From the NCBI GenBank assembly GCA_001938485.1, contig MQRK01215110.1, forward strand, positions 1-55,611: a stretch of 55,611 nucleotides of DNA. Reading direction: 5' to 3'. Position numbers and translations under genes: made by a program. The notes under the pieces were generated by a model. That model did not search any database, was not told the DNA's origin, and saw only the letters and a program-made list of their open reading frames with translations. Positions 9,869 to 55,413 of this stretch are shown here, in pieces. This DNA comes from Girardia tigrina (taxonomy: Eukaryota). Each line of letters starts with the position of its first letter. Position 1 is the first letter of the stretch.

Positions 9869-10529
9869 TGTTAGGGTTTCGAAAAATATATATGAACACT
9901 TGATTAAATTTTATGTAGCAAAAAAATTTAAAATAATTCTTTTGATAAAATATTAATTTCAAACAAAATAATATTTAGTTTAGTAAAATTTGGAATCGAC
10001 AATTAAAAATATTTTAGTCTTTGTTTTATTTGATCAATTTTCAAGGTTAGAAAAAACTAGTATATAAACAGCAACGAATTCAGTCATAAGGACACCAATA
10101 ATTTCCTGCATCAAATTTTTAAGAAGATTCCGTGTAGAGTAAATTTATTTAAATTCTTTATTTTTATTTCTTTTTCTTGAAGTTGAAGTCGAACTAAGTA
10201 TCCTGTATAGGAGAATAAAGTTCATTTGACTTTAAGGGTTTAACGGTTATCTTTCGTTTAGAAGATTTATAATTTGAAAATTAACAAACTGTGATCTGAC
10301 AAACTCGCATCGAATATCCGTGTGTGAATACGTCTATTGATACTATTGAATTGAACAATATAAAGCTGTATGCTATTTTGTGTTATTGGAAAATAAAGTT
10401 TTGAAAAAGAATTTTGTATTCATTCATTTATATATTTATGTTGGAAGATTACAGACTAAAGATTAAAGAATAAAGATTTGAGTTTTTAAATAGTAAATAT
10501 TTAAGATTAAAGATTTTAAATACCCAACA
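9869..10529 (+). mobile_element. Solo LTR of the Gag-Ubl-glycoprotein family (family B)
   Basis: TGTTAGGGTTTCGAAAA...TACCCAACA with CTTA at 9865-9868 and 10530-10533. Clearly similar to the reverse complement of 40373-41062. Confidence 0.9.
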
Positions 10530-14018: not shown

Positions 14019-14951
14019 TTAAATAACCGTTTCCGTTGGTACAATCTTTGTATGACGGGTTGTATACCTCAAACAAGGGAGTACCAATTTGACGCAGATT
14101 TTTCTTCTTACTCGGAGAGTTACAATACAAATGAGAGGATTTATACAGCTACTGATGGACAACATCAGAATTCCGATTTCTTGAACTGAACCATAATAAA
14201 CGTACTTGACGATCCCGAACGCTCCTGCTACGTAGTAAGAGGCATCCAGAAAAACCAGAATCACAAATTGCAATGTTATCAATATCGCCGTCATTGTAAT
14301 TATCAATGTCGATTTATTAATCTTTTCATTTTTATTTAATTTTGATTTTTTATGAATAAACGAAATGATTTTATAATAGACGATAGCGAACAGAGCTGTT
14401 GGACCAATATAAATAAATGTGTACCAACATAAAGCGTAGATTTTGACGTGGATCTTGTAGTAATTGGGATCAATCAAAGGGATATCTACACAAGTACCAT
14501 TAACAACACTAAGCTCGAGACCCGTTGGAGTCACTAAAATTAAACTAATAGAGAAGATCCAAAGTTTACTGAAAATGGCAAAACGTTTAGGGTATTTTCC
14601 GTAATATATTGGTCGTAAAACTGCAATAAATCGATCTAACGCAATCCACAATAGCGTTTGAACGCTTCCCATAACACAGTACCAAAAGACGACTTGTGTA
14701 CTCCATACATGACACAAAATAATATTTACAACCGCACTCGAACTAATGGTATATTTAGGTACGTATTTGATCAGGAGATAACTGAGAGAAGCAAAGGCAT
14801 CCAGCATACATTGCGTAAACAACAGAGAATTCGTTAACTTTGATTTGAAAGGAATTATTAGAATCGTTCCTCCGAATAGGATATTACCAATGGTTCCAAA
14901 GATAGAAATTATAATTTGAATAATATCATAAATTCGAGGAATCCATGCCAT
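14019..14951 (-). CDS. Rhodopsin-class (class A) orphan GPCR, single exon, 310 aa
   Basis: Uninterrupted ORF with seven hydrophobic segments: TM1 GTIGN, TM2 LD, Cys at the top of TM3, ALDRFIAV (DRY variant), an ECL2 Cys, and TM7 SCINPLI (NPxxY variant). Confidence 0.9.
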   Translation of the reverse strand: MAWIPRIYDIIQIIISIFGTIGNILFGGTILIIPFKSKLTNSLLFTQCMLDAFASLSYLLIKYVPKYTISSSAVVNIILCHVWSTQVVFWYCVMGSVQTLLWIALDRFIAVLRPIYYGKYPKRFAIFSKLWIFSISLILVTPTGLELSVVNGTCVDIPLIDPNYYKIHVKIYALCWYTFIYIGPTALFAIVYYKIISFIHKKSKLNKNEKINKSTLIITMTAILITLQFVILVFLDASYYVAGAFGIVKYVYYGSVQEIGILMLSISSCINPLICIVTLRVRRKICVKLVLPCLRYTTRHTKIVPTETVI

Positions 14952-15408
14952 CTTGTATGACTATTCTTTGGAAATATATTTTTATACATTTTAGCAGACG
15001 AATTACATTAATAATTTCAAATGGATAAATTCAAGAACAAATTACTTCAAAGGAAAAAAGTATAAAAGAAATTCTTTAAACTTTGTTGACAAATGAAAAT
15101 ATTTGGTATTAATCGAGGAAAATATTTAGTTTTATATAAATATATATATATATATATATATAGAAAATATAATTTGATTAAAGCTTTTATTATGTAATAA
15201 TAGATAAATTTCAATGTTTACATACATCATCATCAGCAATTTTCGGAAATTTAGTATATAACTATTAAATTGTTTTATTAATACAATTTTAAAAGGCATA
15301 TTAAGTTTAAATGGAATAATTCAAAAAATATATTATAATTTATTATAATTTAAATAAAGATATTTATTAAAATATATTACACTAGAGTTCACAAGGCTCA
15401 ATAATATA

Positions 15409-23519: not shown

Positions 23520-24803
23520 TTGGGTTGGCCAAAAAGTATTGCGTTTTTGAGTACGTCGTAATAAAAAGCTTGAAAACATAAAACGATGTGATAAAATGTA
23601 AATTCAATTATATATTCTGAAACCTTAATTTTCAGACTATGTTTATACAAAATATTAATTGATTTTGTTTTGATTTATTACTTTACCGTCAATTCGAAAT
23701 GGAAAATCAAAATGAGCGTATTCGTCATGTTTTGCTGCATTATTTTCGCAAATGGAAAACCGCTGTGCAAGCTCATAAGAAGATATGTTTTGTATATGGT
23801 AGTGACTCCTTAAAACTTCGACATTGTCAATACTGGTTTTCTAAATTTCGTTCTGAGAAATTTCATTTGAAAGATACACCACGCTCCGGTCGACCAGTTG
23901 AAGTTTATGGCGCCAAAATAACCGCACTGATCAAATCTAATCCACATATAACGACAAGAGAAGTTGCAGAGACTCTGGAAATATCACAATCGTGTGTTGG
24001 AAGTTATTTAAAGAAACTTGGATTCGTCAGTAAACTCGATATGTGGTTACCACATGAACTGAAAGAAATTCCTTTGGTGAAACGTATAGACATTTGCGAT
24101 TCCCTTTTGAAGTGAGAACAAAGTGATCCATTTTTGAAGCGCTTGATTACGAGTGACGAAAAATGGATTGTTTACAACAATGTGGAACGCCGACGATCAT
24201 GGACAAAGCGTGGTGAGCCTGCCAAAACGATCCCAAAAGCAGAAATTCACCAAAAGAAGGTTATGCTTTTAGTCTGGTGGGATTTTAAAGGAATTGTGTT
24301 TTTTGAACTCCTTCCGAGGAATGAAATCATCAATTCAGACAGATATTGTGGTCAGCTGGAGAAATTGGCTCATTCAATTCAACAGTAACGTCCTGAATTG
24401 GCAAATCAAAAAGGAGTTGTAATTCAGCATGATAACGCAAGACCACATACAAGTTTGACCACTCTCCAGAAACTCTTATCACTGGGTTGGGAGGTTTTGC
24501 CGCACCCACCGTATTCTCCAGACTTGGCCCCATCGGATTTTCACTTATTTAGTTCACTGCAGAATTCCTTAAACAGAAAAAAACATTCGCCAGTTATGAC
24601 GACATCAAATCCTTCCTAGACGGCTTTTTTGCTGATAAAGGCAAAGGTTTTTATGAATCAGGAATAATGAAGCTACCGGAAAGGTGGAAGAAAGTGATTG
24701 AAAATAATGGACAGTATATCGTGTAAAAATATTTGTGCATCCATTTCATTTTTTGATAATAAATATTTTAGTAAAACGCGCAATGACTTTTTGGCTAACC
24801 CAA
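23520..24803 (+). mobile_element. Mariner element (mellifera-like), defective transposase 23699-24726
   Basis: TIRs TTGGGTTGGCCAAAAAGT / ACTTTTTGGCTAACCCAA with TA flanks. Motifs WLPHEL, ITSDEKW, QHDNARPH and YSPDLAPSDF, with two stops and a frameshift. Confidence 0.97.
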
Positions 24804-25547: not shown

Positions 25548-26742
25548 TTAGGGGTACCCAAATGTTATGTCGTTTTTTTGATATATTTTTCTAAATCGTT
25601 TAACTGCCGCCTACATTATTTTGACTCTACCATTTTTATTTATTAATTTCAGTTAGTGTATTAACTTTGATTTGTGCCTATTTTTAGATAAAATGTCATA
25701 TGTTTTTATTGATGAAATAGACAAATTGGATGAGTCACATTTGCGTCATTGTATACTTTTTCAATTTGACCGCGGTTTAAAGGTAACAGAGGCCACCTAT
25801 GGTATAAATAAAGTATATCCGAAATCTCTGACTGTGCGCAAATGTCAGCGATGGTTTGCCAAATTCAAGGGAGGCAAGAAAGATTTAGAAGATGATTCCA
25901 AAAATGGCCGACCGTCACATTTCGATGAGAAACAATTATTGGCTATAGTTGAGGAGGATCCAACTCAATCCATTGAGGAAATATCGTGCAGATTGGGAGC
26001 TACCTGGTCTACAGTTCAGCGTCATCTTAAAGTTATTGGAAAAGTTCAGAGAGCGGGAAAATGGGTTCCNNNNNNNNNNNNNNNNNNNNNNNNNNNNNNN
26101 NNNNNNNNNNNNNNNNNNNNNNNNNNNNNNNNNNNNNNNNNNNNNNNNNNNNNNNNNNNNNNNNNNNAGAAATGGGTTCTCTATGAGAATCCCTGTATGA
26201 AAAAACAATGGTTATCAGTAGGTGCATCCCCTACACACACACACCTAAGCCTAATCTCCATGGGAAAAAAGTTCTTTTGTGCATTTCGTGGAATCACAGA
26301 GGAATTATCCACCATGAATTGAGACGCAATGACTACTAAATGCCCGGGATTGCTCAATAGAAATCGCGTTATCCTACAGCATGATAACGCTAGACCACAT
26401 GCTGCAAAGAAAACACAGCAAAAATTGAAAGAATTGGGANNNNNNNNNNNNNNNNNNNNNNNNNNNNNNNNNNNNNNNNNNNNNNNNNNNNNNNNNNNNN
26501 NNNNNNNNNNNNNNNNNNNNNNNNNNNNNNNNNNNNNNNNNNNNNNNNNNNNNNNNNNNNNNNNNNNNNNNNNNNNNNNNNNNNNNNNNNNNNNNNNNNN
26601 NNNNNNNNNNNNNNNNNNNNNNNNNNNNNNNNGTCATCGATTGCGATGGGGACTATTTTTCTGATTAAATAAATGTTTTATATGGTTTTATTTTTGTTTC
26701 TAAAAATCAATAAAAAACGACATAACATTTGGGTACCCCTAA
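25548..26742 (+). mobile_element. Mariner element, internally deleted
   Basis: Perfect ~31-bp TIRs TTAGGGGTACCCAAATGTTATGTCGTTTTTT with TA flanks. HTH region, GKWV, EKWVLY and QHDNARPH motifs. Confidence 0.95.
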
Positions 26743-31650: not shown

Positions 31651-32761
31651 ACTGTAAATTTAGAGTCATCGTTAACTTTATCTCTATTTCTGCATTTTTT
31701 ATTGTGATAGAGAATCAAGCTATTAGTAGTAAGACTTTTAGTTCTGAGAAGACAATTTGTTTCTCCAATGCACAAGGATTCACACTTGTGACATTTAAAT
31801 TTATATACTAGATTAGCTTAGACACCTGATGGAGTTTTTGATTTATTTTAATATTGAAAATAAATAAAAAAAGATTCATTGTGTAATAGTCACAAGTGGA
31901 AATCCCCTCTCATTTTTTTAGAAAAAACAAAAAGACAATTTAACGAAAGAACTCTTAATGGTTATCTTCTTCTGTCCCTCTAAAACATATATGTGGTCCT
32001 CCTCTCGAGAAGTTTATATAATGCAGTATATGTAATATATTATAAATATTTTTGTGTCTCATTAACTTTAATTATTGTGTTAACTCTAACAATTATTATA
32101 ATTGTTATATTATAATATATGCTTATTAGTTATTTAATCCAATTGTAAATATATCTAAAAATATTATAAAAGAAAACGGATTTCTAAGTGAATGAAAGTG
32201 AAAAAGTCTTCAGTTAACATTTGCCATCGCGTTTGCTTTGATGACTTCAATCAGGTTTTGTTTTGTCCCATTATCGAATCTCGGAAAATTCCATTAGGCC
32301 AAATTGTTTTAGTACATTTTAATATGATATAAGACGATGAATATTAAAAAGTAATAAATATACAAATATAAATTTCGGAAAAATAAAACGATTATCATTA
32401 TCAACAAAATGATAAACGATTTGAAGTCAGTCGAATTTATCTTTCGTCTTTGTTTAAATTTGCTTTGAAAACATTTTGATTGAGCGTTTGAAAACGAAAT
32501 TTGCGGTACTCAAATATTTTCTTTTTAACTAATTTTTCCCTACATCCGACATTTAATGTTGTCTCATTTATTCTCAAAATGTATAATTTGTATTCGATGA
32601 TATATGTAATTAGTATTTATACACATTTTACAATTTTAATAAAATGTATTTTCCTTATGATGAACAAGTCACGAAAATGTATTAGTCTTAGTACAGCTTG
32701 AAGTGTTTCATATTCTTTATTTCCAAAAATGGTAGAGCGATTCCATCTTCAAAATTATAAG

Positions 32762-34752
32762 TGTTGGGTATTAAATTATCTTTAATTTAAATATTATTTT
32801 TTAAATATAAATCTTTATTCTTTAAACTTTAATCTGAAATCTTTAATCTGACTCCAATTAATCAGAAAGGACTTCCAACATAAATATATGAATAAATGAA
32901 CACAAAATTCTTTTTCCAAATATTTTATTTTTCAATAACACAAAATAGCACACAGCTTTATATTGTTCAATTCAATAGTATCAATAATGGATATTCACAA
33001 ATGGATATTCGAGTTTATCAGATCACAGCTTATTTATTTTCAAACTCTAAATCTTCTAAACCAGAGGTTCCCAAACTTTTTTGGCCTACCGCCCCCTTTC
33101 CAGAAAAATATTACTTAGCGCCCCCTGAAAATTAATTTCGAGGAAAATTAATTAATAAAATTAAATTAATTAAATAAATTAGAAATTAATAAAAATATTT
33201 TTGAATCAACTTAGAGAAAGTAGATCGGTATCAGCAGTGATGAGCAATGATATTTTTAAGAAAGGGCTCGCTCTTATTTTTTCTCGGGAATTGTATGAAC
33301 TAGTACTCTAGCAATGTGTCACTGCGACTGACATAAAAAAACAAAATAATGTTAATTAAATGGTTTATTTTATAGAAAAAACAACAATATTATATGAAAG
33401 CATTTATTGAACTTAGAATAGAATGTATTGCCTACATTTTTTCTTTGGTTGAGTCATTATTATCTGTAAAAAAAGAATATTTTTATGGAGGTATTTTTAA
33501 TAATATATTTTTAGTAAATTTTAGAAATATTTTTGTAAAAAACAAATTAAGTTGAGCCATTATTATCTGTAAAAAAAATTCTTATGGAGGTATTTAATAA
33601 AATAATTAAATTTTTTTATTTAATAATATTTTTTTAGTAATTTTTTGAAATATTTGTGTAAAAAACTAACTGAAATAAATAGTGATGAAATAAATAAACA
33701 TGATATTATTAATTGTAAAGCGTATGTAATTATTACAAAATAAATGAATAATACTCACCAATTATAGTCACANNNNNNNNNNNNNNNNNNNNNNNNNNNN
33801 NNNNNNNNNNNNNNNNNNNNNNNNNNNNAATATATCAATTAAATAAAAATTTCCTGGCGGTTGTGAGATAATAAATTTATTTCACGTTTCAATTCACCAC
33901 CTAACTATTATTATTCAAACAAAATCACTATTATCACACAGAAACAATTATTATATAGCCTAATGTTTTTTTTAATTTTGGAACCAAAACTTTACTTGTT
34001 TTAAAATTTTTTTTATTCAAATTTTTTTAACTTTAATTAATTAATTTATTCTTTTTCGATTTTATTCCATTTTATTTCCAATGTATTCATTTCCATTTNN
34101 NNNNNNNNNNNNNNNNNNNNNNNNNNNNNNNNNNNNNNNNNNNNNNNNTTATTCTTTTTCGATTTTATTCCATTTTATTTCCAATGTATTCATTTCCATT
34201 TTAATCCCTAACAATCACATAAATCAATTTTTCTAAATCTTCTCTTCTTTCTTTTATACTATCACCGTCCCCTTACAGATATTCATCGCCCCCAAATGCC
34301 GTCTGTGGCCATCACCGTCCCCCTGGATTGCTGCAGCGCCCACTTTGGGAACCACTGTTCTAAACGAACGATAACCGTAAACAATTGAAAGTTATAATGA
34401 TCTACTTCTCCTATACAGGATACTATCGATCAGAACTTTCAATAGAGGAATATTAATCGAATAAAATAAAAAAAATAAAAATAAACTTTACGATTCTTCC
34501 TTCTTGTAGTTTTAGATTAGAAATTTTTGGGCAAACTAAACTAAATTTGCTGCTGTTTATAGTGTTTTTCATCAGCCTTGAAAACTGATAGAAGAAAACA
34601 AAGACTAAAATATTTTTAATTTTCAATTCCAAATTTTGATAAACTAAATATTATTTTGTTTGAAATTAATAATTTTGCCGAAAGAATTATTTTAAATTTT
34701 TTTACATAAAATTTTATCAAAAGTGTTCATAAGTATTTTCGAAACCCTAACA
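32762..34752 (-). repeat. 3' LTR, interrupted by a hAT non-autonomous element
   Basis: Direct repeat of 40373-41062 once 33062-34365 is removed. Confidence 0.95.
33062..34357. mobile_element. Non-autonomous hAT (Charlie/Buster-type) element
   Basis: TIRs CAGAGGTTCCCAAA / TTTGGGAACCACTG. 8-bp TSD TTCTAAAC at 33054-33061 and 34358-34365, present only once in the sister LTR. Confidence 0.95.
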
Positions 34753-34800
34753 GATCTCTCCCCAATAGAAAATATCGTCCTCGATATTTAGACGACAGTC
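34753..34800 (-). promoter_or_regulatory. Polypurine tract plus conserved upstream hairpin
   Basis: Minus strand GGGGAGAGA lies just before the 3' LTR. The same ~48-nt block occurs before the LTR at 52293. Confidence 0.85.
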
Positions 34801-35465
34801 AAATATAATAATGATATTATGAATAATAGGCAACCATTATATCTCTTTCAAAACATAAAAGTTAAAAAAATAAGACTTTCCAAATGGCATAAATTAATAA
34901 AAACGTTATAACCGTTAAAGCAACAAAGAAAAATTCTGATCGTCCATTAAAACAAAAATAATTAATTTATTTTTCAAAGAAAATATTAAATAACAATCAT
35001 AATTTCAAACGCAATATTCCTAGTTAACTTTATTTTAAACAAATTCTTCTTCCCGAAATCGGCAAGAGGTCTTTCAAACATGCAAGAAGCCGATTTTATC
35101 ATTAACATAAATAAATATTAATTATATTAATTATAAATCTTTGTCTTTTGATCATCTGTTAAATTTAATGTATTATACTTATAATTGTAGTTATAACTGT
35201 CTTAAAAAAATATATTATTATTATCGACGAAATTATTATTGATGACAAGACAATTATTATTATAATTGTCTTTAAGATAATTTGATATTTAGATTACCAA
35301 TTTTCCTCCCAGAAATTGATATATAATCATCAACAATTATTGCAATAATTGCAATAATTTATTTTATTATTCCATTTCCGTAATTGATATTTTATTATTC
35401 ATTTTTTTAATTTTTATTTTTGATTTTTTAGTTTAGCAATAAAAAGCGCCACTCAGATCCACCCG

Positions 35466-35610
35466 AACGCAATGGAAACGACAAGAATCGATGGTCCCTC
35501 TCGACACACTAGTGGGCAAATAGTCAACCTAATGTGTCGAAACAAAGAGAGTTTGCTAGCTGTGTTAGAAGCGTTTATTCACGATCCATTATTACAATGG
35601 GTCCCCCACG
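35466..35610 (+). pseudogene. TOR: TOR kinase-domain C-terminal fragment inside the LTR element
   Basis: NAMETTRIDGPSRHTSGQIVNLMCRNKESLLAVLEAFIHDPLLQW matches the TOR signature NAMEVTGLDGNYR...HKDSVMAVLEAFVYDPLLNW. No other TOR sequence was seen in the window. Confidence 0.8.
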
Positions 35611-35984
35611 ACGACGCCAAGAAAGGCGGAGACAACACCATAGAAAATCCGCTTACTAATCAAGAGACAACAGTCGATCTTAGAAAAGCTTTGAGATTAG
35701 GTATTCGACCATTTAATGTTCCAGCGCCACCAACAACAACACACTCAAACACGTCTCGAAATCCTAATTGCAGGCCGTCTTCTGGAAATTTATATATTTT
35801 ATTTTATAAGTCATTTTTTTTGTTTTGATTTTTTTATATAATATTAAATAATAATAATGATAATAATAATTTATATAATAATTTAAATAATATTCATAAA
35901 TAAAATAATAATATTAATAATAATAATATTACTAATATTAATAATAATAATATATATATTTTTTATCAACACCTATCCCGCCAA

Positions 35985-37676
35985 GTTTGACCAAAAAATA
36001 TAAATTTTCCCCATATTCTTTTCATTGTATTCATAGTGGCTCTTTGAAAATGATCTATACTCAAAAAATTGTCATAGTTTACTTTTCCTACTCCGTAAGG
36101 TAAAAGGGTATCAATGATTTCATTCATAACTCTTTCTTTTTTAGAAGGAAATAAGAGATTACGTCTTGAATCTTCAAATTTCTTCTAGTGAATAAATACA
36201 AATTGTTGACATCTGATCTAAAGACGTAAAATTTATTAAATATTCTAATTTTGTTAAATCCAATTTTTCGATGCCTTTAACTTCTTTATTATTTGGTAAT
36301 AAAATCCACATTTCTGGTGTTAATGGATATAAAGGTGCTGTTATCTCATTAAATCGTAATTTTCTAGGTATTGTTCCATTTTCCACCAAAATTCGTGTTA
36401 TAGGTTCTACAAATCTTAATTCACCTTTATAGCTAACTGGAAGTTCATTTGTACACTCATTATGTTTTATTATTTGAATTGATATTTCTTTACATTTATA
36501 GCTATATAATGCTTCGGCCATAATTCGTCCAAATACACCTTTTTCAGCAACTAGTATTGGAGCGACTAAATTAGGATTTGTTACAACTAAAGCGATTCGA
36601 TTTTGTAATATTTCACGATTCAATTTACAATCATTTAATATAAGCTCACGATATAAATTTTCCACTGTTGATTGATGAAAATGAAATGTAAAATCCATTT
36701 TATTGCTCAAATAATGTAATAATTTTATATCAGCATTATGTACAACTGTAGCATCGGGTATCCTTTCTTGAGAAACATATAGACCCTTATAATTTGTTGA
36801 ATACATTGGTTTTCCACAACGGTTTTCTTTTTCTTTTCGAATAAATCTCATTCCATCTGCTGAAAGAGATGACATTAAAACTGTTGCTAAATTCCTTTTT
36901 TGAACTGGTACTGTTTTTCGAGCTTGATACTTCTTTGGTTTTAACCTATCTGGTCTTTCTTGTATTTGAATACATTGAGCTTCAATAAATTCTGCTGATT
37001 TAAGAAATGCTAAATTACAATCTTTATAATTAACTGAGTATAATAATACAGATTCTCCTGTCTGACAGCTTTTAGTTCGATAATTACAAAATGGATGAGA
37101 CTGTAATTTCCCAGTAACATCATCAAAAATACCATCAAATTCTCTCAATTCTCTTTGATATTATTCTGATATGATAATTTTATCTAGTATTTTATTTCCT
37201 AATTTTACAGATTCTCCTTTACATTCTCCATCCGGATTCATTACTTCTTTCCGAAATACAGATTCTCTTGTAATATATCCAACTTTGGCAGTCAATGTTA
37301 AAGTGGAATCAATTTTTAGTTGTTTCGTTTGGAATGCTGCTTTACAATTTTCTGGTAAGATTTCAACTGGTCTCGGTATAGCATCTATTTTAATAAGAGA
37401 AGAGTGACTCCATCTTCCACAAGGAAAAACATAAGTTGCACGTTTTACTATACACTCTCGTACTTTTGCTCTTCTAAATCCTGATTCTTGATACAAATGA
37501 TATAAAACATTTTTCTCTTCTTTAATTTGAAATGGATAAGCTTCAGCACATTCCACGACATTCATTAATGAATATATTTTTCTCACTTCTGTTTGTGAAC
37601 AATCATTCGCTACTAAAGACATCGTTGGAGATACACATAAGAATAAAATCATAATTAATGATAACCACCACATTCT
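35985..37676 (-). pseudogene. Chuvirus-like (class III fusion) envelope glycoprotein, one stop, one frameshift, truncated at the TM region
   Basis: Signal peptide MWWLSLIMILFLCVSPTMS then LVANDC, ECIVKRATYVFPCGRWSHSS, YLSNKMDF...LYRELILNDCKLNREILQN, AEALYSYKC, CTNELPVSYKGELRFVEPITRIL. After a frameshift it reads LLFPSKKE...IWGKFIFFGQ. These follow the motif order of chuvirus G proteins. Confidence 0.85.
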
Positions 37677-37899
37677 CGAATTATATATGGATTTTTTACT
37701 ATTATCAATTTTGTTATCTTTCAAAGATTCGTCTTTTAATACTTTATTTCGAAACTTTTTACTTCTTTTTGATACACTTCTACTTATTAAATTACCATTT
37801 GTATCTACATCTGGAATATTTTGAAACTGCAACATATTTTCTTCCTTTTTAATTTCAACGTTTTGTAAATCATCAGTAAATTCGTTAAAATCATTCGTA

Positions 37900-38615
37900 T
37901 CGTAAAATTCTTCAATATAATAAACTGTTATATTATTAATTTCTTTTTCATAACATCTATAATCATATAGATAATTTTCATCTAGTAATTCTAAATCCGA
38001 AAGAAATAAAAGTAATGTTCCTTCAATTTTAAACATTTCTTTAACTTTTTGTCTTTTTTACTTTAATTGTCCACACTTCAGCAGTATTAATTGTACCTTT
38101 TCCTGGAACGTCTATTGCTAGAAATAATCTTTGAATATCTTTATTTTTCTGTCTATTATATTGTCCAAATTTTATTAAAATTTCTTGTATTTCTTTTTTA
38201 AACATCGTTTCTTGCTTTAATTTATATATTAATACTGATCTAAGATTATTTATAACATTATCATTAATGTTTAACATTTCTATTTCTTTAATTATATTCT
38301 TTAACTTTTCTTCATTGACTTCATTTTTTAATCTCAATGTCAAATCTTTAATATAATTTTCAGATACATTCATTTTATTATGATTATTTTCTAACATTAT
38401 AATATCAACAGTATTAATGTTGTTTGGTAATATTCCATAATCCACTAAATAATCTTCTAATTCTAATTCAAAACATTTAAAATTCATAATAAATTTATCA
38501 TTTCCAATCTTTTGTACAAGTATTTCCTTCAAATGTTTAACTTTTTTAAGATGATCAATTTGAATTACTGTAAATTACTGTAAATAAGTCCATCAATAGT
38601 TATAAAAATCTGAAG
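37900..38615 (-). pseudogene. Two tandem ubiquitin-like domains (frameshifted)
   Basis: QIFITIDG/FTVIQIDHLKKVKHLKEIL...ELELEDYLVDYGILPNNINTVDII and LFLAIDVPG...TIKVKK/KVKEMFKIEGTLLLFLSDLELLDENYLYDY show the ubiquitin pattern QIFV..TV..VK.KI..L.F.G..LED..TL.DY.I. Confidence 0.65.
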
Positions 38616-39139
38616 ATTATCTGTCATAGGCATTTTTCTCAATTGTTCTCCTAAATATTTCAAAAATGTTTTCATTTCCCTATTCATCGTTTTATTATAC
38701 TCTAAATAATTCACTACCAACTTTATAAAATGTTCAGTTTTATCATTTTGTAAATTTAATATGATAATTTCTTTAATATTTTTGCTTATTTTAACATTTA
38801 AATCTTTATTCATTTCCATTTCGTTTATTAATCTACTCATATCTATTCTCGATTTATCTAACTTAACATCATCAATTTTATCAGAAACACTTTGAACTTT
38901 ACTTTCAACTTTACTGTTATTTTCATTTTGTTTAAATTTATTTTTACTTTCATCTTTTGATGTTGATAGCATTTGTACACTTGGATCAGTTTTATTAATT
39001 CTTGCGGATATTCTATCAAATTGTGTTCTTAATTCGTTAAAGTCTGTTTCATAGAATCATTGGAACCTTCATCTTCAGATGACAAGCAGTTTATATCGGA
39101 TTGATTATCTTTGAATTTAATTTTCTTCTTCAAGATTGA

Positions 39140-40243
39140 TGGTGATGGTATTTGCGTATTTGATCTACATGATCTGGCAATATGACCATATTTTTTACAT
39201 TTTTCACACTGTATTTGACCTTCACTGTTAAGTTTGGCTCCCTGTGGAGAAGGAGTTAAAGATCTATTTCTAGTATATCTGTTCTACATCTATTAGCTAG
39301 ATGACCTCTTTTTCCACATTTGTAACATGTTTTAGTAGATGAATTTCGATTATTATTTGTATTATTTTTGAACCAACATTGATTACTGACATGACCAATT
39401 TTGTTACAATTATAACATTGAGGTTTTCTTGTATAATTATTTGACTCTCTGGTGTCATTAAATCTCATTGATCTTGAAAAATTTGGACTTCTCGAATAAT
39501 TTGGGCTTTGATTATTGTTATGTCTACCATTAAAATATTGATTTTGTTTTGGATTTTCATTTTGTGGTCTGTATCTTTGCATTTTTGGAGATACATAACT
39601 TTGAAAATCTTCGTCTGAATCACTGTTGTTTGAATATATCTTCTGTTTAGGTCTTTCTATCGGTTTTAATTCAGTTACACATACTGGTCGAATAGGAGCT
39701 GCAGTAGTATTCATTTCTATTTTCATAGCCTTTTTNNNNNNNNNNNNNATAATTTGTATAGTCAACAAAACAAAGTGCTGTTCTTATGTTATTTTGAACT
39801 CCAGCCCAAAACTGATCTTCAACTATCTTTTTTGTTTGTTCTGTCCAATTTCTCTTTTCTCCAAACGCTTTTTCTGAAAGTGTGGATAAATGAAAAGCGA
39901 ATTCACCAACTGATTCATCCGCATTTTGAATTTGGGAATAAAACTTTTCCCGTATGATTCTACCAACATCACCACTTATTAATTTTTCAGCCATTAAATC
40001 TTTCATATTTGCCCAAGTTTCAACTCCATTTTTATCAATTTGAGTAAAAACTTCTCTAACTGCACCTTTTAAATATAATGGTAATCTTTGAATCATTATT
40101 TTTTCGGCCCATCCATATGCTGTAGCAAACATAAAATATTCTGTCATAAAATCTACGAACTCTACGGGATCTCTCCCATATTGATTTACAGGTAACTTTT
40201 GACAACTCATAAAATCTATATTATTCTCTCTATTTTCTGCCAT
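39140..40243 (-). pseudogene. gag: Gag (capsid plus three CCHC zinc knuckles)
   Basis: FATAYGW, LPLYLKGAVREVF and QNADESVGEFAFHLSTL are retrotransposon gag motifs. Knuckles are CYNCNKIGHVSNQC, CYKCGKRGHLANRC and (frameshifted) CEKCKKYGHIARSC. Confidence 0.92.
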
Positions 40244-40345
40244 CGTTTCTTTTTTAACTTTTTTCCGATTTCTCAAAGGATAATTAGACGTTTTGATACT
40301 TTTTTCGAAATTTCAATTATTAAAAATATACTCTTTTTATTTTAA

Positions 40346-40362
40346 GCACAGAGGGCTCACCA
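40346..40362 (-). promoter_or_regulatory. Putative primer-binding site
   Basis: TGGTGAGCCCTCTGTGC begins 10 nt inside the 5' LTR end. Cognate tRNA not identified. Confidence 0.6.
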
Positions 40363-40372
40363 AATATATTTA

Positions 40373-41062
40373 TGTTGGGTATTAAATTATCTTTAATTTA
40401 AATATTATTTTTTAAATATAAATCTTTATTCTTTAAACTTTAATCTGAAATCTTTAATCTGACTCCAATTAATCAGAAAGGACTTCCAACATAAATATAT
40501 AAATGAGTGAACACAAAATTCTTTTTCCAAATACTTTATTTTTCAATAACACAAAATAGCACACAGCTTTATATTGTTCAATTCAATAGTATCAATAGAC
40601 GTATTCACAAACGGATATTCGATGCGAGTTTATTAGATCACAGTTTGTTTATTTTCAAACTCTAAATCTTCTAAACGAACGATAACCGTAACAATTGAAA
40701 GTTATAATGATCTACTTCTCCTATACAGGATACTATCGATCAGAACTTTCAATAGAAGAATATTAATCGAATAAAATAAAAAAAATAAAAATAAACTTTA
40801 CGATTCTTCCTTCTTGTAGTTTTAGATTAGAAATTTTTGGGCAAACTAAACTAAATTTGCTGCTGTTTATAGTGTTTTTCATCAGCCTTGAAAACTGATA
40901 GAATAAAACAAAGACTAAAATAGTTTTAATTTTCAATTCCAAATTTTGATAAACTATATATTATTTTGTTTGAAATTAATAATTTTGTCAAAAGAATTAT
41001 TTTAAATTTTTTTACATAAAATTTTATCAAAAGTGTTCATAAGTATTTTCGAAACCCTAACA
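40373..41062 (-). repeat. 5' LTR (690 bp)
   Basis: Minus strand TGTTAGGG...ACCCAACA, with a TATA-like CTATAAA and AATAAA motifs. Confidence 0.95.
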
Positions 41063-41476
41063 TAAGTTCCGAAAAGTTTCAGGTGCAAGAAAATAACATG
41101 ACTTTTCTGTTTGGTTGTAGACATAAAACGTGATTAGAAAAGCCGGATGAAGTCTCGTTGTTACCGTAACTTTAGCAAAATATGAAATAAGTAATAATGA
41201 AATTTGTTAATAAATATAGTTGTTAAGTCGTATATTTAGTGGTATTTATATTATATATATTGCTAGTTTGGAAAAAAATTAGATTTATATTATTTGAATA
41301 AATATTTCATAAAGCTCTTTTTAAAACATTGTTAATATACAAAATGTTTCAATCTGCATTGATCATCATCAACTAAATGAATGAACCGAAATTTTCATAA
41401 GGAATTTGTTGAACAAATGATGATTTCCCTGTTTAGTCTGTTACTAAACAGGTTTAAATTAAATTAAAACAAAAGG

Positions 41477-41790
41477 TTTAAATTTGAGAGCATTTCGCCA
41501 CAAATACTTCTAATCATTCGCTTTACCAGGTTCAACTACGGAATCATAAACGCCAGCTATCCTGAGGGAAACTTCGGAAGGATACAGCTACTAGATGGTT
41601 CGATTAGTCTTTCGCCCCTATACTCATGTCCGACGATCGATTTGCACGTCAGAACCGCGGCGGTCCTCCATCAGAGTTTCCTCTGACTTCAACCTGCACA
41701 AGCATAGTTCACCATCTTTCGGGTCTTTACACGATCGCTCAAACTCCGCCCAGATGCGAACACCATCAGACGGATGAACTCGCAATGCAA
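41477..41790 (-). pseudogene. 28S (LSU) rRNA gene fragment
   Basis: Reverse complement of the conserved LSU core: GCTATCCTGAGGGAAACTTCGG, GCTACTAGATGGTTCGATTAGTCTTTCGCCCCTATAC and GCATAGTTCACCATCTTTCGGGTC. Isolated, ~300 bp. Confidence 0.93.
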
Positions 41791-42763: not shown

Positions 42764-44025
42764 TTAAGTTGGTCGAAAAATAATGGCGGTTTTTGAGCTT
42801 TATACTTTGTTTATCTACTTTGATATGTATATAAGTTTAAATGCATTAGTGTTAGATATTATTTGAAATCTTATGCCTAGCTGTATATTCATATAGACAT
42901 TATTAACATATTGCTGTTATTTTTTAGAATATTTACGGTGCTAAATTAATAATGGAAAAAATTAAAATTCGAGCAATTTTCTTGTACGAATATAAACTGG
43001 GTTGTAAAGCAGCAGAAACGGCTCGCAATATCAATAAAGCGTTTGGCAAGGGAACAGCTTCTGAGCGCACAGTGCGACGATGGTTCCGAAAATTTTCTGA
43101 TGGAGATGAAAACCTTGAAGATGAAGAAGGTCGTAGTCGTCCTGTTTCTGTGAACAACGACAATTTGAGGACAATGGTGGAAACAAATCCCCGTACAACA
43201 ATCAGAGAACTTGCAGATGGGTTGGGCATTAGTCATTCAACAGTCCTGGATCATTTAAAACAACTTNNNNNNNNNNNNNNNNNNNNNNNNNNNNNNNNNN
43301 NNNNNNNNNNNNNNNNCTATGAAATTTGTTCTGCCAATCATCTTCGCAATAAAAACGATCCATTTCTTGATCGAATTGTTACCTGTGATGAGAAATGGAT
43401 CCTGTATGATAACCGACGTCGATCTGCACAGTGGTCGGACAAAGATGAAGTACCGAAACACTTTCCAAAACCGAAACTAACACTCCGTAAGGTTAGGGTG
43501 ACAGTTTGGTGGTGTGCCACTGGAATCATCCACTATAGTTTCTTGAATCCAGGTGAAACAATCATAGCGGAGAGGTAATGTCATGAAATTGATGAAATGC
43601 ATAAAAAATTGAAAACCCTTTTTCCGGGATTGGTCAATCGAAAAAGTGCCATCCTTCTTCATGATAACGCTAGACCACATATTTCAAAAGTGACTCTTCA
43701 AAAGCTTAATGAGTTGGGCTATGAAACCCTGCTTCATCCACCATATTCACCAGACCTCTCGCCAACGGACTTCTACTTTTTCAGGCATTTGTACAANNNN
43801 NNNNNNNNNNNNNNNNNNNNNNNNNNNNNNNNNNNNNNNNNNNNNNNNNNNNNNNNNNNNNNNNNNNNNNNNNNNTGCTGATGGAATAAAACAACTTGTT
43901 TCTCGTTGGCAAAAATGTATTGATGCCGACGGTTCATACTTTGATTAATAAACTTTTGTTTCTGTGAATTTGCACGTCTTTGAAGTTTGTGTCCAAAAAC
44001 CGCCATTATTTTTCGACCAACCTAA
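42764..44025 (+). mobile_element. Mariner element (cecropia/Hsmar1-like), transposase 42952-43948 with a premature stop
   Basis: TIRs TTAAGTTGGTCGAAAAATAATGGCGGTTTT / AAAACCGCCATTATTTTTCGACCAACCTAA with TA flanks. Motifs IVTCDEKW, LHDNARPH, YSPDLSPTDF and GSYFD*. Confidence 0.97.
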
Positions 44026-49595: not shown

Positions 49596-52500
49596 TGTTG
49601 GGATTCCGAAAAATATAAATTAAATTTTTAAATCTAATAAAAAATTTAAAATAAATCGTTGGTTAAAATTAATAATTTTTTGATTATTATAATAGTATTT
49701 TAATAAAATTTACAAAATATTTGTAAATATTTTGAGATTTGTTTTAGTTATTCAATTGTCAAGGTTAGGTAAAACTAGTATATAAGCAATAGTTATTTCA
49801 GTTACCGACGCCCATTTGATCACTCGAAGAAAATTAATTTCAAAATTTTATGCGTGGTAAACTTGTTTGTTTTCTATTATTGTTATTTTTTTAACTAATG
49901 AATTAATAGAAAGTTTTAAGTATCCTGTAATATAAGAATAGTAAAAGAAAATCAGATCAGTCAAATGTTGAAGAAATTAAACAGAAACAAAGTTGTTCAA
50001 AAATTGATGATTTAAAATTGGATAAACATAGAATTAGTATAAATCGATTATCAAATCAAATAGATTTAAATAAAGAAGGTGCTAAGAAAGTATATAATTA
50101 TGCAGCAAAGATTGCAGGAATGGAAGTTACTATAGAGAAAACTGCAAATTTATTAAAACTGTTATCAAATTATTTACATGATAATGACAATTCAAAAAAT
50201 AAAATAGTTTTTGATGAAAAATCTTGGAAAAGAATTAAGACAGATTTTAATATTTGAAAAACTTGAAATTATGATTAATAGTTGCGGAAGAGAAGTTACT
50301 ACGGTAGATTTATCACCTCAGAGTAAGGTTAATGATTTAAGAGTTGATAATAAATAAAATGGAAGTTGAAAATTTTATTTTGATCTTTAACAATCAAGTA
50401 TTGGAACATGATGAATATTTAATAGATTATGGTATATTACCTTCGTATATTAATAATGTGGAAGTTAAAATACAAGAAGTTTGATATTGAAAAGAAATAT
50501 GAATTAGAAACTGAAATGCGTATAAAAGACGTTGCACTAAGATTAATTAATGAATTTAAATGTGATTATCTTGATTATGAATATATTATTAGTTTATTAA
50601 ATGAAATTGATACGTTTACGGTATCCGAAAGATTAATTCATTTAATTAAACCTTTGTTGGTAGCTCAAATACACAAAAATACAAAATTTTGTTCTAACAT
50701 TATGGATCTTCTAAAGAAATTTTCGAAATATCTTCGTAAAGAAAATTTAAATGTATCAAAAATATTTTTAGCATTAAATATGCCTGACAATAGTATTGTT
50801 CATGTAGCTGAACATTGGTGTATTAAAGTTAAAAAACTTAGAGAAAAAGTAAAACGAATACTAGACAACTCTGGAACAATTAAATTATTTTACAGAAATC
50901 AAGAATTAGAAGATGAGGATTACGTTTATGATTATGGTATTTTAGATGGTGAAATAAATCAAATTCAAGTGATTTTCATGAGAGAATATATTAATGATTA
51001 TGATAAAAATTTTATGGATAATAATGTTATGAGGAATACTAAGGGAATCATACCAATGATCACCGAAAATGAAATAAAATGTGAACCAGAAGTACCTCTG
51101 GAGAGTATTGATGATGAGGAAATTGGTAATAATATGAAAAGAGAAAGTATTTGTGAAATCCAAGAACCATTGACTCCAAGAATTGATAAATCATTTTTAC
51201 AAAAAGATATGAAAAGTATCGATAATATTAATAATGATAAGACAAAACATGTACTTGTATATAAAAAAACTTGTATATAAAAAAAATCAAATAAAAATAA
51301 AACAAAAAAAATATAACTTACAGTTTCAAAGAAATTCATCGATTTGAGTCAATCAAAAATGTCATTACTGTTTGATATTACCATTATTATAATTATATAT
51401 CTATGTATATAAAAAAAAATAATTTACAAAATATTGTGGAAAATAAATTGTGAGTCCATGTGGAAAATAAATATAATGGAATATTTGATAATATAAATAA
51501 CAATCGATAATTATAAAGACAATTGTATAAAAAATTGCCTTTTGTAATAGAGCGAGTGTCCACATTTGTTTTGATGGAGTCGACATCAATTAGTATGAGC
51601 CATTTTTATAGCTCATTATCCTTCTAATAATGAGTCTCGAGTTGACATAAATATGTATATAAATATAAATACAATAGATTACTTTAAGAAACATATTACA
51701 GATATTTTGTAATGATTTTAAGAATTTGAAATTGTTAATAAATATAAGAAATTTTATATAAAATTGACACATTATATTCCAAAATTTCCTTCGGTTAAGA
51801 AAATTAATGCAAACAACAAAATTTTATTTCAGAAGTTTGAAATGATTTGTGAACAACATACACTTCTTTTCTCAAAATCAGTTAAAATGTTGTGTTGGGA
51901 AATATCAGGAAGTACATTGAGTTGCTTTATTGTTTAAAACATTTTATTGTATGTTTTGAAAGACTTTCTTTTCAGTAAACATGTAAACACAAGAGAATTT
52001 TTATATTTATATTTATATTTATTTTTATATTTATATTTTATATTTATAAATTTTAAATATTTTATTTTTGGTGATTTATATATTTATTTATCTATATATT
52101 TATTTTTTAAAGATGGCAGAAATTCATGATTTTTTTTCACGGGGATTTGTTTTTAACAGTAAAACGTTTTGGAAAATCTCTTTTAACTTTTATATTTTGA
52201 AAAAGTGTAATGCTTACTTACCAATATTAATACCAATATTTTTGACTATCGTCTAAATATCGAGGACGATATTTTTTTATTGGGGAGAGATTTGTTAGGG
52301 TTTGGAAAAAGCATATGAACACTTCTTGATAGAATTTTATATAAGTAAAAATCTAAAATAATTCTTTTAGTAAAATTATTAATTTCAAATAAAATAATAT
52401 TTAGTTTAACAAAACTTGGAATTAAAAATTATAAATGTTTGTTTTACTTCATCAAAAATTATAAATATCTTAGTTTTTGTTTTATCTCATCAATTTCAAG

Positions 52501-53079
52501 GCTGAGGAAAATTACTATATAAACAAATCAAATCTAGTTTTAGTTTGCCCAAAAATACTTGCAAGAAATCTAACTAAGAGGAGTCGTGTTAACAAGTAAC
52601 GTGAAAGCTTATTTTATTTTTTCATTTTATTCTTTTAAAAAATATTGTTAAACCATAAGTACCCGTATGGGAGAAGAAGGTTTAACTTAAAATCTTTGAG
52701 TTTTAATCAAATTATCGTTCGACTTTGGAGATTCACAGTTTTTACTGTAATCTGTTAACTCGCACAAAATATTGATTGTGTTTGTATTCTGTCATCCAAA
52801 ATTGAATTATTATTATTATTATTGACTTGTTAATTTTGTTATTTGAAATAAAGTTTCATAAAAGAATTTGTGTTCATTATTCATATATTTATGTTGGAAG
52901 TCCCTTCTGATTAATTGGAGTCAGATCAAAGATTAAAAATTATTGATTAAGAATTATTGATTAAAGGTTATTGATAAAAGAATAAAAAAATAGAGATTTT
53001 CGATCAAAGATGAAGATTTAAGATTTGTGTTTAAAAAGTGAATATTGAGATTAAAGATAATTTTTAATAAAACCCAACA
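49596..53079 (+). mobile_element. Deleted second member of the Gag-Ubl-glycoprotein family
   Basis: Partial diverged LTR from 49596, ORF pieces homologous to 37900-38900, the same PPT block, and 3' LTR 52293-53079 (TGTTAGGG...ACCCAACA). Confidence 0.8.
50257..51280 (+). pseudogene. Tandem ubiquitin-like domain region
   Basis: LEIMINSCGREVTTVDLSPQSKVNDLR...FNNQVLEHDEYLIDYGILPSYINNVEV and IFLALNMPD...IKVKKLREKVKRILDNSGTIKLFYRNQELEDEDYVYDYGILDGEINQIQV. Confidence 0.7.
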
Positions 53080-54165: not shown

Positions 54166-54479
54166 TCAAAATAATTTTTAAACCAAATTTTAATACTTCT
54201 ACCCTTAATTATCACTTGATTTTCACAATATTTGTTCAATTTATTAATTTTTTCCGTACATCCGTAAAGTAAATTTTTTAAAATATTGTATTGTCATCGG
54301 AAGCAAGCCTGTATAAAAAAAATCAGCTCAATTGGATGACCGAAAGTGGTCGAAAAATCAATCTCAAGATTTGTTCCAGACAGAAAAGAAGACAAACAGA
54401 CAGACAGACAGACAAGAAACCAAGCTAAGAAAAACGTGGTAAAAACAACATTAGACCATTAAACCATTAGAAAAACAGA

Positions 54480-55413
54480 AAAGAATATTTTGACTCAGTC
54501 CATCAACTAGGCCACTACGGAATCCATACCACATATAATATGCTACACTTAGAGGTTTGTTGGCCTGGTATGAGAAATGATATAAAAAATTGGGTTAAAG
54601 ATTGCAAAGAATGCAACCTAAATAAAATCACACAACACCCAAAACTAAAGAAAATCAATTTTGAAAGCTGCGATAAACTCGAAGTTATTCATTTAGATAT
54701 TGTCGGTCCACTTCCAACAAATAAGAACAAGAAATACCTAATAACTATAATTAATAGAAATACAGGATGGTTCGAAGTAACCCCAACAAAAGAAATAACA
54801 GTGGAAAAAATATCTAAAATCGTCGACGAACAATGGATTACGAGATACGGACCACCAAAGAAAATTATAACCGACCAAGGACCACAATTTGAATCAGAGA
54901 TTTTCAAAAAAACTATGCAAAAGAAACTCAATAACAAAAGCGAGAACAACAACTTACAACCCCCAGTGTAACGGCAAAATCGAAAGATTCCACCGAACTC
55001 TGAAAGAAACTTTAAATACTTTCTGCAACGATCAAAACTGGTTAGAAAATCTCAACAAAACATTGCTCGGTGTAAGACTGAAAACAAAAAGTAACTCAAC
55101 CGAATCACCACTCATGAAATTAACAGGCAAAAGCCATTTCAAAATAACCGACAAAGAAGAATCAACACCAATCTTCAAGGAAATCAAAACTACCGAAAAC
55201 ATCGAAGCCTACGTTAAAAAACCTTTCACAAGGAATTTCGAAAATAAATTCGAAGGACCTTATCTCGTCAAACTATTAACTAATAACACTGCACTTCTTG
55301 ATATCAATGGAAAAGACAAATACGTAAATTTAAGACGCATTAAACTAATCCAACAAAACAATAACAATCACTTTCCAGACACGAACAAACATGACAAAAA
55401 CAGCAAAAAATGA
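54480..55413 (+). pseudogene. Gypsy integrase (one frameshift)
   Basis: H..GHYG, WPGM, CKEC, IHLDIVGPLP, IITDQGPQFES, YNPQCNGKIERFHRTLK and KFEGPY. Confidence 0.93.

What the first reader, a model, noticed from the sequence alone, without database searches (positions are those of the whole stretch)
32762..41062. Pol-less LTR element encoding Gag, tandem Ubl and a chuvirus-like fusion glycoprotein
Seen: paired LTRs, TSD, PBS and PPT. A co-directional coding region, broken only by point stops and frameshifts, runs from gag knuckles through two Ubl domains and an internal signal peptide into a glycoprotein. No protease, RT, RNase H or integrase motif lies between the LTRs. Known: LTR elements have captured viral fusion proteins several times, including chuvirus-like G in mosquito BEL/Pao elements. 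Gypsy env is normally a separate ORF after pol. Inference: the 4-bp TSD and gag type suggest Ty3/Gypsy, and this may be an independent capture in which Gag and envelope form one polyprotein separated by host signal peptidase. It could be the structural half of a bipartite enveloped retroelement relying on Pol in trans.
Basis: partly seen in the sequence, partly recalled or inferred. Interest (0 to 1): 0.92.

Follow-up and report, generated by a model that had tools for sequence, protein, structure and literature searches.

The report
Deleted copy of enveloped gypsy retroelement
This is a broken, internally deleted copy of a virus-like jumping gene whose full-length sisters carry the copying enzymes behind the envelope gene in one long reading frame (a published layout), plus a predicted second surface protein that may help the particle attach to cells.

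Summary
The LTRs, 4-bp TSD, Gag, two Ubl-like domains, signal peptide and Monjiviricetes-type glycoprotein are real, and this copy has no pol. But its glycoprotein is cut before the membrane anchor by a deletion seen in no other fetched locus. Sister copies continue in the same frame: glycoprotein, anchor, protease, RT, RNase H, integrase. All 21 domain junctions are open in 42-87% of copies, so the family is one ORF with env inside Gag-Pol. That layout, Ubl included, is published for planarian Burro and GAG-ENV-POL errantiviruses, and the scan noted it before on another genome (e1-8073080). The element is therefore not bipartite, and an independent capture is not supported. Not found in my paper searches: (1) a second predicted membrane protein (signal, three FN3-like domains, anchor) fused after integrase in two families; (2) an RT-less Gag-Env-protease subfamily (53 junction matches against 254 pol-type) with its own LTR, its own TSDs and synonymous-biased shared variation, to which this copy most likely belongs; (3) an antisense host TOR fragment in its 3' region. 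A separate DEDD-exonuclease ORF follows the polyprotein. Verdict: new variant of a known kind.

The parts
41063..41066 (.). target-site duplication (TAAG), 5' side
40373..41062 (-). 5' LTR, TG...CA ends, 690 bp
40352..40362 (-). PBS-like site, 10 nt behind the LTR, conserved in 6 of 6 other copies where the LTR end was correctly placed and readable; priming tRNA not identified
39752..40243 (-). Gag capsid part (ATG at 40243), Retrotrans_gag E 5e-4, below cut-off
39032..39729 (-). nucleocapsid part with three CCHC knuckles, broken by frameshifts in this copy
38388..38627 (-). first ubiquitin-like domain, preceded by a helical unit; frameshifted here; no C-terminal Gly-Gly
38148..38367 (-). helical bundle between the two Ubl domains (repeat unit = helical part + Ubl)
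37911..38139 (-). second ubiquitin-like domain; frameshifted here
37608..37673 (-). internal hydrophobic segment, predicted signal peptide
35982..37607 (-). Monjiviricetes-type (gB-like class III by family label) fusion glycoprotein ectodomain; stops inside; cut before its anchor
35981..35982 (.). deletion join with 2-nt microhomology; removes at least anchor, tail, protease and the short C-terminal piece of the RT-less subfamily (about 1.65 kb against L046, 2.4 kb against L014); private to this copy among 172 loci
34753..35981 (-). 3' non-coding region shared with RT-less copies
35424..35789 (+). captured fragment of a host TOR kinase gene, antisense to the element; 83% identical to the host-like gene in L049
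34755..34763 (-). polypurine tract, 2 nt before the 3' LTR
32762..34752 (-). 3' LTR, interrupted
33062..34357 (.). non-coding DNA-transposon insertion with terminal inverted repeats and an 8-bp TSD (hAT-like by these marks; label recalled)
32758..32761 (.). target-site duplication (TAAG), 3' side

Best explanation
The window holds a decayed, further-deleted copy that likely belongs to an RT-less subfamily of a single-ORF Ty3/Gypsy element, whose full form reads Gag, two Ubl-like units, fusion glycoprotein, protease, RT, RNase H, integrase and a predicted FN3 membrane protein in one frame. Shown: domain order, one frame (about 3,200 codons, summed from locus distances), two structural types (A with pol; B with protease joined in frame to a short tail), B copies with paired LTRs and their own TSDs, and mosaic A/B copies. 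Inferred: the polyprotein would be threaded through the ER membrane, with Gag-Ubl and the enzymes in the cytosol and the glycoprotein and FN3 domains in the lumen; host signal peptidase would free the two ectodomains and the element's protease the rest. B RNA would be packaged with, and copied by, RT and integrase from a pol-bearing relative, while B itself supplies Gag, Env and protease. The window copy was integrated by that route and can make none of these now.
For: Pol behind G in sister copies. 21 of 21 junctions open in one natural frame in 42-87% of the copies that have both sides; no uncovered-by-frame position between start and stop except one unsampled N gap. RT-RNase H best PDB hit Ty3, E 2e-77. 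B join: 53 pattern matches, A join: 254, controls 0. 12 of 18 B copies run to the same stop 104 codons behind the protease probe. B join sits with window-type LTRs (81-94%) in L046, L061, L063, L064, L066, L067, L068, L073 and L014/L077; pol sits with another LTR type in L013, L023, L025, L072. Two RT-less copies have LTR pairs 97-99% alike and separate 4-bp TSDs. Letters found only in B and shared by 3 or more copies are mostly synonymous in G (2 N/8 S against 126/53 private, p 0.002) and protease (2/6 against 60/10, p 0.0007). The window's G groups with B copies and its LTR and 3' region are B-type.
Against: The window copy has lost the B join itself, so B membership rests on LTR, 3' region and a weakly supported tree (G tree label changes 4 against 5.6 shuffled, not significant). 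B is not one clade in the tail-protease tree (3 changes; starred branches force 2). No selection signal in B's anchor-tail region (4 N/0 S) or its short tail (14 N/2 S, p 0.14), and the B-only counts are small. Recurrent mutation or unsampled A copies could mimic B-only shared letters. An integrase-bearing variant (L173) and a TOR-bearing locus (L044) share a tail type 87% like A, so pol-bearing elements with the window-type 3' end may exist unseen. The anchor region has two hydrophobic stretches; the topology needs only one to cross the membrane. No protein, particle or cleavage was observed. Counts include assembly duplicates.
Confidence: 0.8

Rival explanations
1. One reading: the structural half of a bipartite enveloped retroelement, from an independent capture of a chuvirus-like glycoprotein, with Pol encoded on a separate partner that lacks Gag and Env.
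For: An RT-less, replicated subfamily keeping Gag, Env and protease under apparent purifying selection does exist.
Against: The pol-bearing partner carries its own Gag, Ubl units and Env in the same frame and outnumbers B about five to one. Relatives with the same layout are published.
Confidence: 0.04
2. One-off deletion of an ordinary autonomous copy, before or after insertion; no RT-less lineage is involved in this copy's history.
For: The window's join is private and removes the very place that tells A from B. A pol-bearing variant with a related 3' end may exist.
Against: Sequence just behind the join matches what follows the B tail in L014, L043 and L046; the LTR is 90-94% like B LTRs and about 70% like A LTRs; none of the 4 pol-bearing loci with an adjoining same-strand LTR had the window type.
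Confidence: 0.12
3. B is a passive parasite: its Gag, Env and protease look conserved only because recombination keeps refreshing them from A, and B proteins do nothing.
For: Mosaic copies in the tree; A and B are 91-94% alike in gag-env-protease but about 70-80% alike in tail and LTR.
Against: Synonymous bias remains among letters absent from all sampled A copies; the frame is kept through the join to one stop in 12 of 18.
Confidence: 0.3

Closest known systems
Burro / GYPSM1 giant gypsy-like elements of planarians (Arkhipova and Yushenova 2019, PMC6431247; section 7 read whole)
   Same: One ORF; Gag with Retrotrans_gag and CCHC knuckles; a Ubi2/SUMO-like domain; env in frame between gag and pol with hits to mononegavirus fusion proteins.
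   Different: About 3,200 codons against 4,873-5,140; two helical+Ubl units; no BCL2, MATH, BIR, ankyrin or dUTPase hit in the frames scanned; FN3 membrane module after integrase, not mentioned in that text.
Platyhelminthes GAG-ENV-POL HSV/gB-type errantiviruses, e.g. Smed_errantivirus_1 (Chary and Hayashi 2026, PMC13524379; abstract, sections 5 part 1, 9 part 1 and 14, word-search passages, rows of supplements 1 and 2)
   Same: Ty3/gypsy pol, gB-type env, gag-env-pol order; about 93 of 156 env residues identical to the printed fragment (counted by eye); PBS tRNA unassigned there too.
   Different: The main text has no hits for ubiquitin, fibronectin, fn3, polyprotein, non-autonomous or frameshift. 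Its GitHub sequences and figures were not seen and may show these domains.
Nematode gag-env-pol metaviruses (Sacco et al. 2022; not held, seen only as cited in PMC13524379)
   Same: Flipped env/pol order.
   Different: Could not be compared.
Mosquito BEL/Pao elements with Chuviridae-like glycoprotein (Dezordi et al. 2020; search listing and passages in PMC13524379 only)
   Same: Same broad glycoprotein family.
   Different: Different retrotransposon superfamily; here pol is Ty3/Gypsy-like.
Bdelloid rotifer Juno/Vesta elements with a DEDDy exonuclease ORF3 (Rodriguez et al. 2017, PMC5408684; passages)
   Same: A separate DEDD-family exonuclease ORF behind pol.
   Different: There it replaces env and is RNase D-like; here it accompanies env and scores with RNase_T, PolC and ISG20.

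Membership tests
Ty3/Gypsy LTR retrotransposons | TG...CA LTR pair, short TSD, PPT | tested here: met
Ty3/Gypsy LTR retrotransposons | PBS complementary to a host tRNA | tested here: inconclusive
   conserved TGG site 10 nt behind the LTR; 3 genomic pattern matches were not called as tRNA
Ty3/Gypsy LTR retrotransposons | pol order protease-RT-RNase H-integrase (family level) | tested here: met
   sister copies
Ty3/Gypsy LTR retrotransposons | RT closest to Ty3 group | tested here: met
   PDB search: Ty3 E 2e-77, next E 5e-52, retroviral 1e-31; no RT tree built
Autonomous element (this copy) | pol present between the LTRs | tested here: not met
GAG-ENV-POL gB-type errantiviruses | env of the Monjiviricetes/gB type by profile | tested here: met
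   PF24664, 267 bits in L013, 106 and 60 bits in the window pieces
GAG-ENV-POL gB-type errantiviruses | class III trimer fold and cysteine-bridge pattern | not tested
GAG-ENV-POL gB-type errantiviruses | env between gag and pol | tested here: met
GAG-ENV-POL gB-type errantiviruses | placement with the flatworm elements in the POL tree | not testable with these tools
   the published sequences could not be loaded; only a by-eye env comparison
Burro | env in frame between gag and pol in one ORF | tested here: met
Burro | Ubi2/SUMO-like domain between Gag and env | tested here: met
   by homology: sister-family region 37% identical over 240 aa (E 2e-45) passes Pfam ubiquitin, 35.4 bits against cut-off 25.4, and hits PF11976 at E 3e-4
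Burro | giant ORF (about 5,000 aa) with BCL2, MATH, BIR, ankyrin domains | tested here: not met
   about 3,200 codons; no such Pfam hits in the frames scanned
Fibronectin type III domain (post-integrase module) | profile and fold match | tested here: inconclusive
   Pfam fn3 E 2e-4 to 0.03, all under cut-off; model mean pLDDT 46.5, third domain about 70-85; many Foldseek rows are FN3 proteins at E 0.002-0.01, TM 0.5-0.6 to single domains, but the four best rows are a bacterial sensor ectodomain

The most novel reading that the evidence does not exclude
These elements encode a two-protein entry machine inside one retroelement polyprotein: a gB-type fusogen before the protease and an FN3 attachment protein after integrase, the partner that gB-type fusogens usually need. 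The RT-less subfamily is a selected Gag-Env-protease supplier that raises the structural-to-enzyme ratio in place of frameshifting, and its antisense TOR fragment touches host growth control through small RNAs.
Probability: 0.2. Interest if true: 0.8.

Novelty: new variant of a known kind. Interest (0 to 1): 0.45.

Why it matters
How gB-type errantiviruses enter cells is stated as unknown in PMC13524379, because herpesvirus gB needs partner proteins. A predicted FN3 membrane protein made from the same ORF, kept in two families at 42-46% identity, is a concrete candidate partner. The RT-less subfamily bears on how a one-ORF element balances capsid against enzymes. The window copy itself is a dead derivative.

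Tried and rejected
Direct tests of the Ubl region in this family were weak or empty: Pfam none; PDB only UHRF1 Ubl at E 0.13; hhalign to host ubiquitin probability 0.1; AlphaFold pLDDT 44.5 and Foldseek nothing at E 0.001; no homologs; no atlas hit. The helical unit's best VIA match is a TFIIS LW/TND domain (Z 10.8, rmsd 2.5, 78 aligned), under the tool's level for helical bundles, so not claimed. No homologs for the FN3 region at near lengths. PBS tRNA: first pattern had one N too many; the corrected one gave three non-tRNA matches. The hydrophobic run after 35982 in the window was rejected as an anchor: it is AT-rich simple sequence behind two stops. A dUTPase-like piece between protease and RT was suspected; Pfam gave none. 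Expression: only contigs were available; 9 of 12 runs held small shares; contigs cover gag-env-protease and the integrase-FN3 stretch but cannot show transcription, strand or level, and cover of the B join was thin or absent in three of four runs. Selection on FN3 was not shown (13 N/12 S shared against 62/34 private, p 0.26). A 3' LTR directly behind a full A-type end was not seen in one locus; the link is through overlap of L164 with L023. Sacco et al. 2022 is not held.
Full report
Observation. The element lies on the minus strand between 32762 and 41062. The LTRs are 669 of 683 bases identical outside a 1.3-kb insertion in the 3' LTR, and a 4-bp TSD flanks them. Pfam finds three CCHC knuckles, a weak Retrotrans_gag match and the Monjiviricetes fusion family in two pieces. 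No pol probe matches inside. The coding region is broken at several places, and an N run lies at 39736-39748.

The copy is deleted. A G probe has 1071 first-look candidates in G000, 40 scored. I fetched 20 of these. In 8 of the 20 the match to the window ends exactly at 35982, and the copies go on into a hydrophobic anchor region, a tail and an aspartic protease. One natural frame of 833 codons runs from the signal peptide through G into the protease. The window's join is crossed by none of 172 loci except the window's own, though 35 reach it from the G side.

Type A, the full element. Loci fetched by an RT probe show G, anchor, protease, RT, RNase H and integrase in that order. For each of 21 neighbouring domain pairs from capsid to the last anchor, both sides lie in one natural stop-free frame in 42-87% of the 6-23 copies that have both, so there is no fixed stop or frameshift. 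RT-RNase H is closest to Ty3 among solved structures. After integrase the frame continues through a second hydrophobic segment, about 290 residues of beta-rich sequence and a strong anchor. FN3 support is consistent but under the cut-offs. Contigs of other runs bridge integrase to this region. Behind the stop lies a separate ORF with an RNase_T-family exonuclease (36.9 bits against cut-off 24).

A sister family has the same plan. Its G is 61-73% identical in most pieces, its Ubl region 37%, its FN3 region 42-46%, with the same order through to the last anchor, and the same exonuclease ORF. Its first Ubl passes Pfam's ubiquitin cut-off, which carries the Ubl label over to this family. The region is a tandem repeat of a helical unit plus Ubl. 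Neither Ubl ends in Gly-Gly, so release by a host deubiquitinase is unlikely (inference).

Type B, RT-less. In at least 40 places (53 by pattern, against 254 for A) the protease is joined to a short piece resembling the A C-terminus at 70-80%, without RT, RNase H, integrase, FN3 or the second anchor. B joins sit with the window's LTR type. Two RT-less copies, L064 and L007, have paired LTRs and their own TSDs, so RT-less RNAs were copied and integrated as such; L007 and L006 have a third LTR type. Variants shared among B copies are synonymous-biased in G and protease, also when limited to letters absent from sampled A copies, but not in the anchor-tail region or the short tail. The tail-protease tree of 33 copies clusters A and B (3 label changes against 11 shuffled) but shows mosaics; the G tree of 17 does not separate them. 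Five of 29 B-side loci keep part or all of the exonuclease ORF, only 43-69% like A's. With L173 and L044 this suggests that B's 3' end comes from a diverged sub-lineage that may still have pol-bearing members; I did not see one.

TOR fragment. Window 35424-35720 (+) matches mTOR at E 2e-9. L049 holds a TOR-like gene end with the C-terminal motif; up to about 570 bp of it, starting upstream of the kinase-matching sequence in what looks like intron, lies antisense in element 3' regions at 73-97% identity. A protein search found 23 places of 26 candidates. Any function is untested.

Mechanism. Shown: order, frame, two types, linkage to LTR types, separate insertions. Inferred from the hydrophobic segments and general knowledge of viral polyproteins: membrane threading with signal-peptidase release of two ectodomains; equal amounts of Gag, Env and Pol from A; helper-dependent copying of B, with co-packaging explaining the mosaics.

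What is known. PMC6431247 (section read whole) describes planarian Burro with Gag, a Ubi2/SUMO-like domain and in-frame env between gag and pol. PMC13524379 reports GAG-ENV-POL gB-type elements in flatworms, nematodes and bryozoans. I found no report of the FN3 module, the RT-less subfamily or the TOR capture in searches or in word searches. The library lacks most subscription papers, Sacco et al. 2022 among them, and Repbase entries and the eLife GitHub files were not seen, so any of these may already be annotated. The host was not identified; the nearest published relatives are planarian.

Verdict. The headline claim fails: this is a deletion derivative of a known layout. The family around it has features I could not find in print. 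Novelty: new variant of a known kind; interest 0.45.

Noticed in passing
window 49988-51280 (+): A decayed piece of the sister family (helical+Ubl units) lies in the same window; related LTR-like sequence at 52227-52957 and 9869-10504.
   Followed up: partly
L033:2324-3860 (-), L042:3693-5210, L171:1303-2421: Separate ORF behind the polyprotein with a DEDD/RNase_T exonuclease, present in type A, the sister family and some TOR-bearing loci.
   Followed up: partly
G000: 3445 first-look candidates for ubiquitin; many near-perfect matches lie in open frames of 300-1710 codons, which suggests a ubiquitin-bearing repeat family. Two such loci (L140, L141) did not match this element's probes.
   Followed up: no
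L006, L007: RT-less copies with a third LTR type and a join 77-84% like B's, so the RT-less state is old or arose twice; ten 2-mismatch matches share one variant.
   Followed up: partly
L142, L147: Sister-family copies in which RT is followed directly by the FN3 module, with different joins.
   Followed up: no
window about 41500-41750: Sequence that looks like a large-subunit rRNA fragment on the minus strand (recalled, not tested).
   Followed up: no
window 14019-14960 (-): 313-codon hydrophobic ORF that looks like a seven-helix receptor (label recalled).
   Followed up: no
window 23663-24486, 25657-26632, 42928-43718: Three mariner-like transposase remnants (label recalled).
   Followed up: no
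window 2632-3129, 54471-55413: Fragments of other LTR elements' RT and integrase.
   Followed up: no
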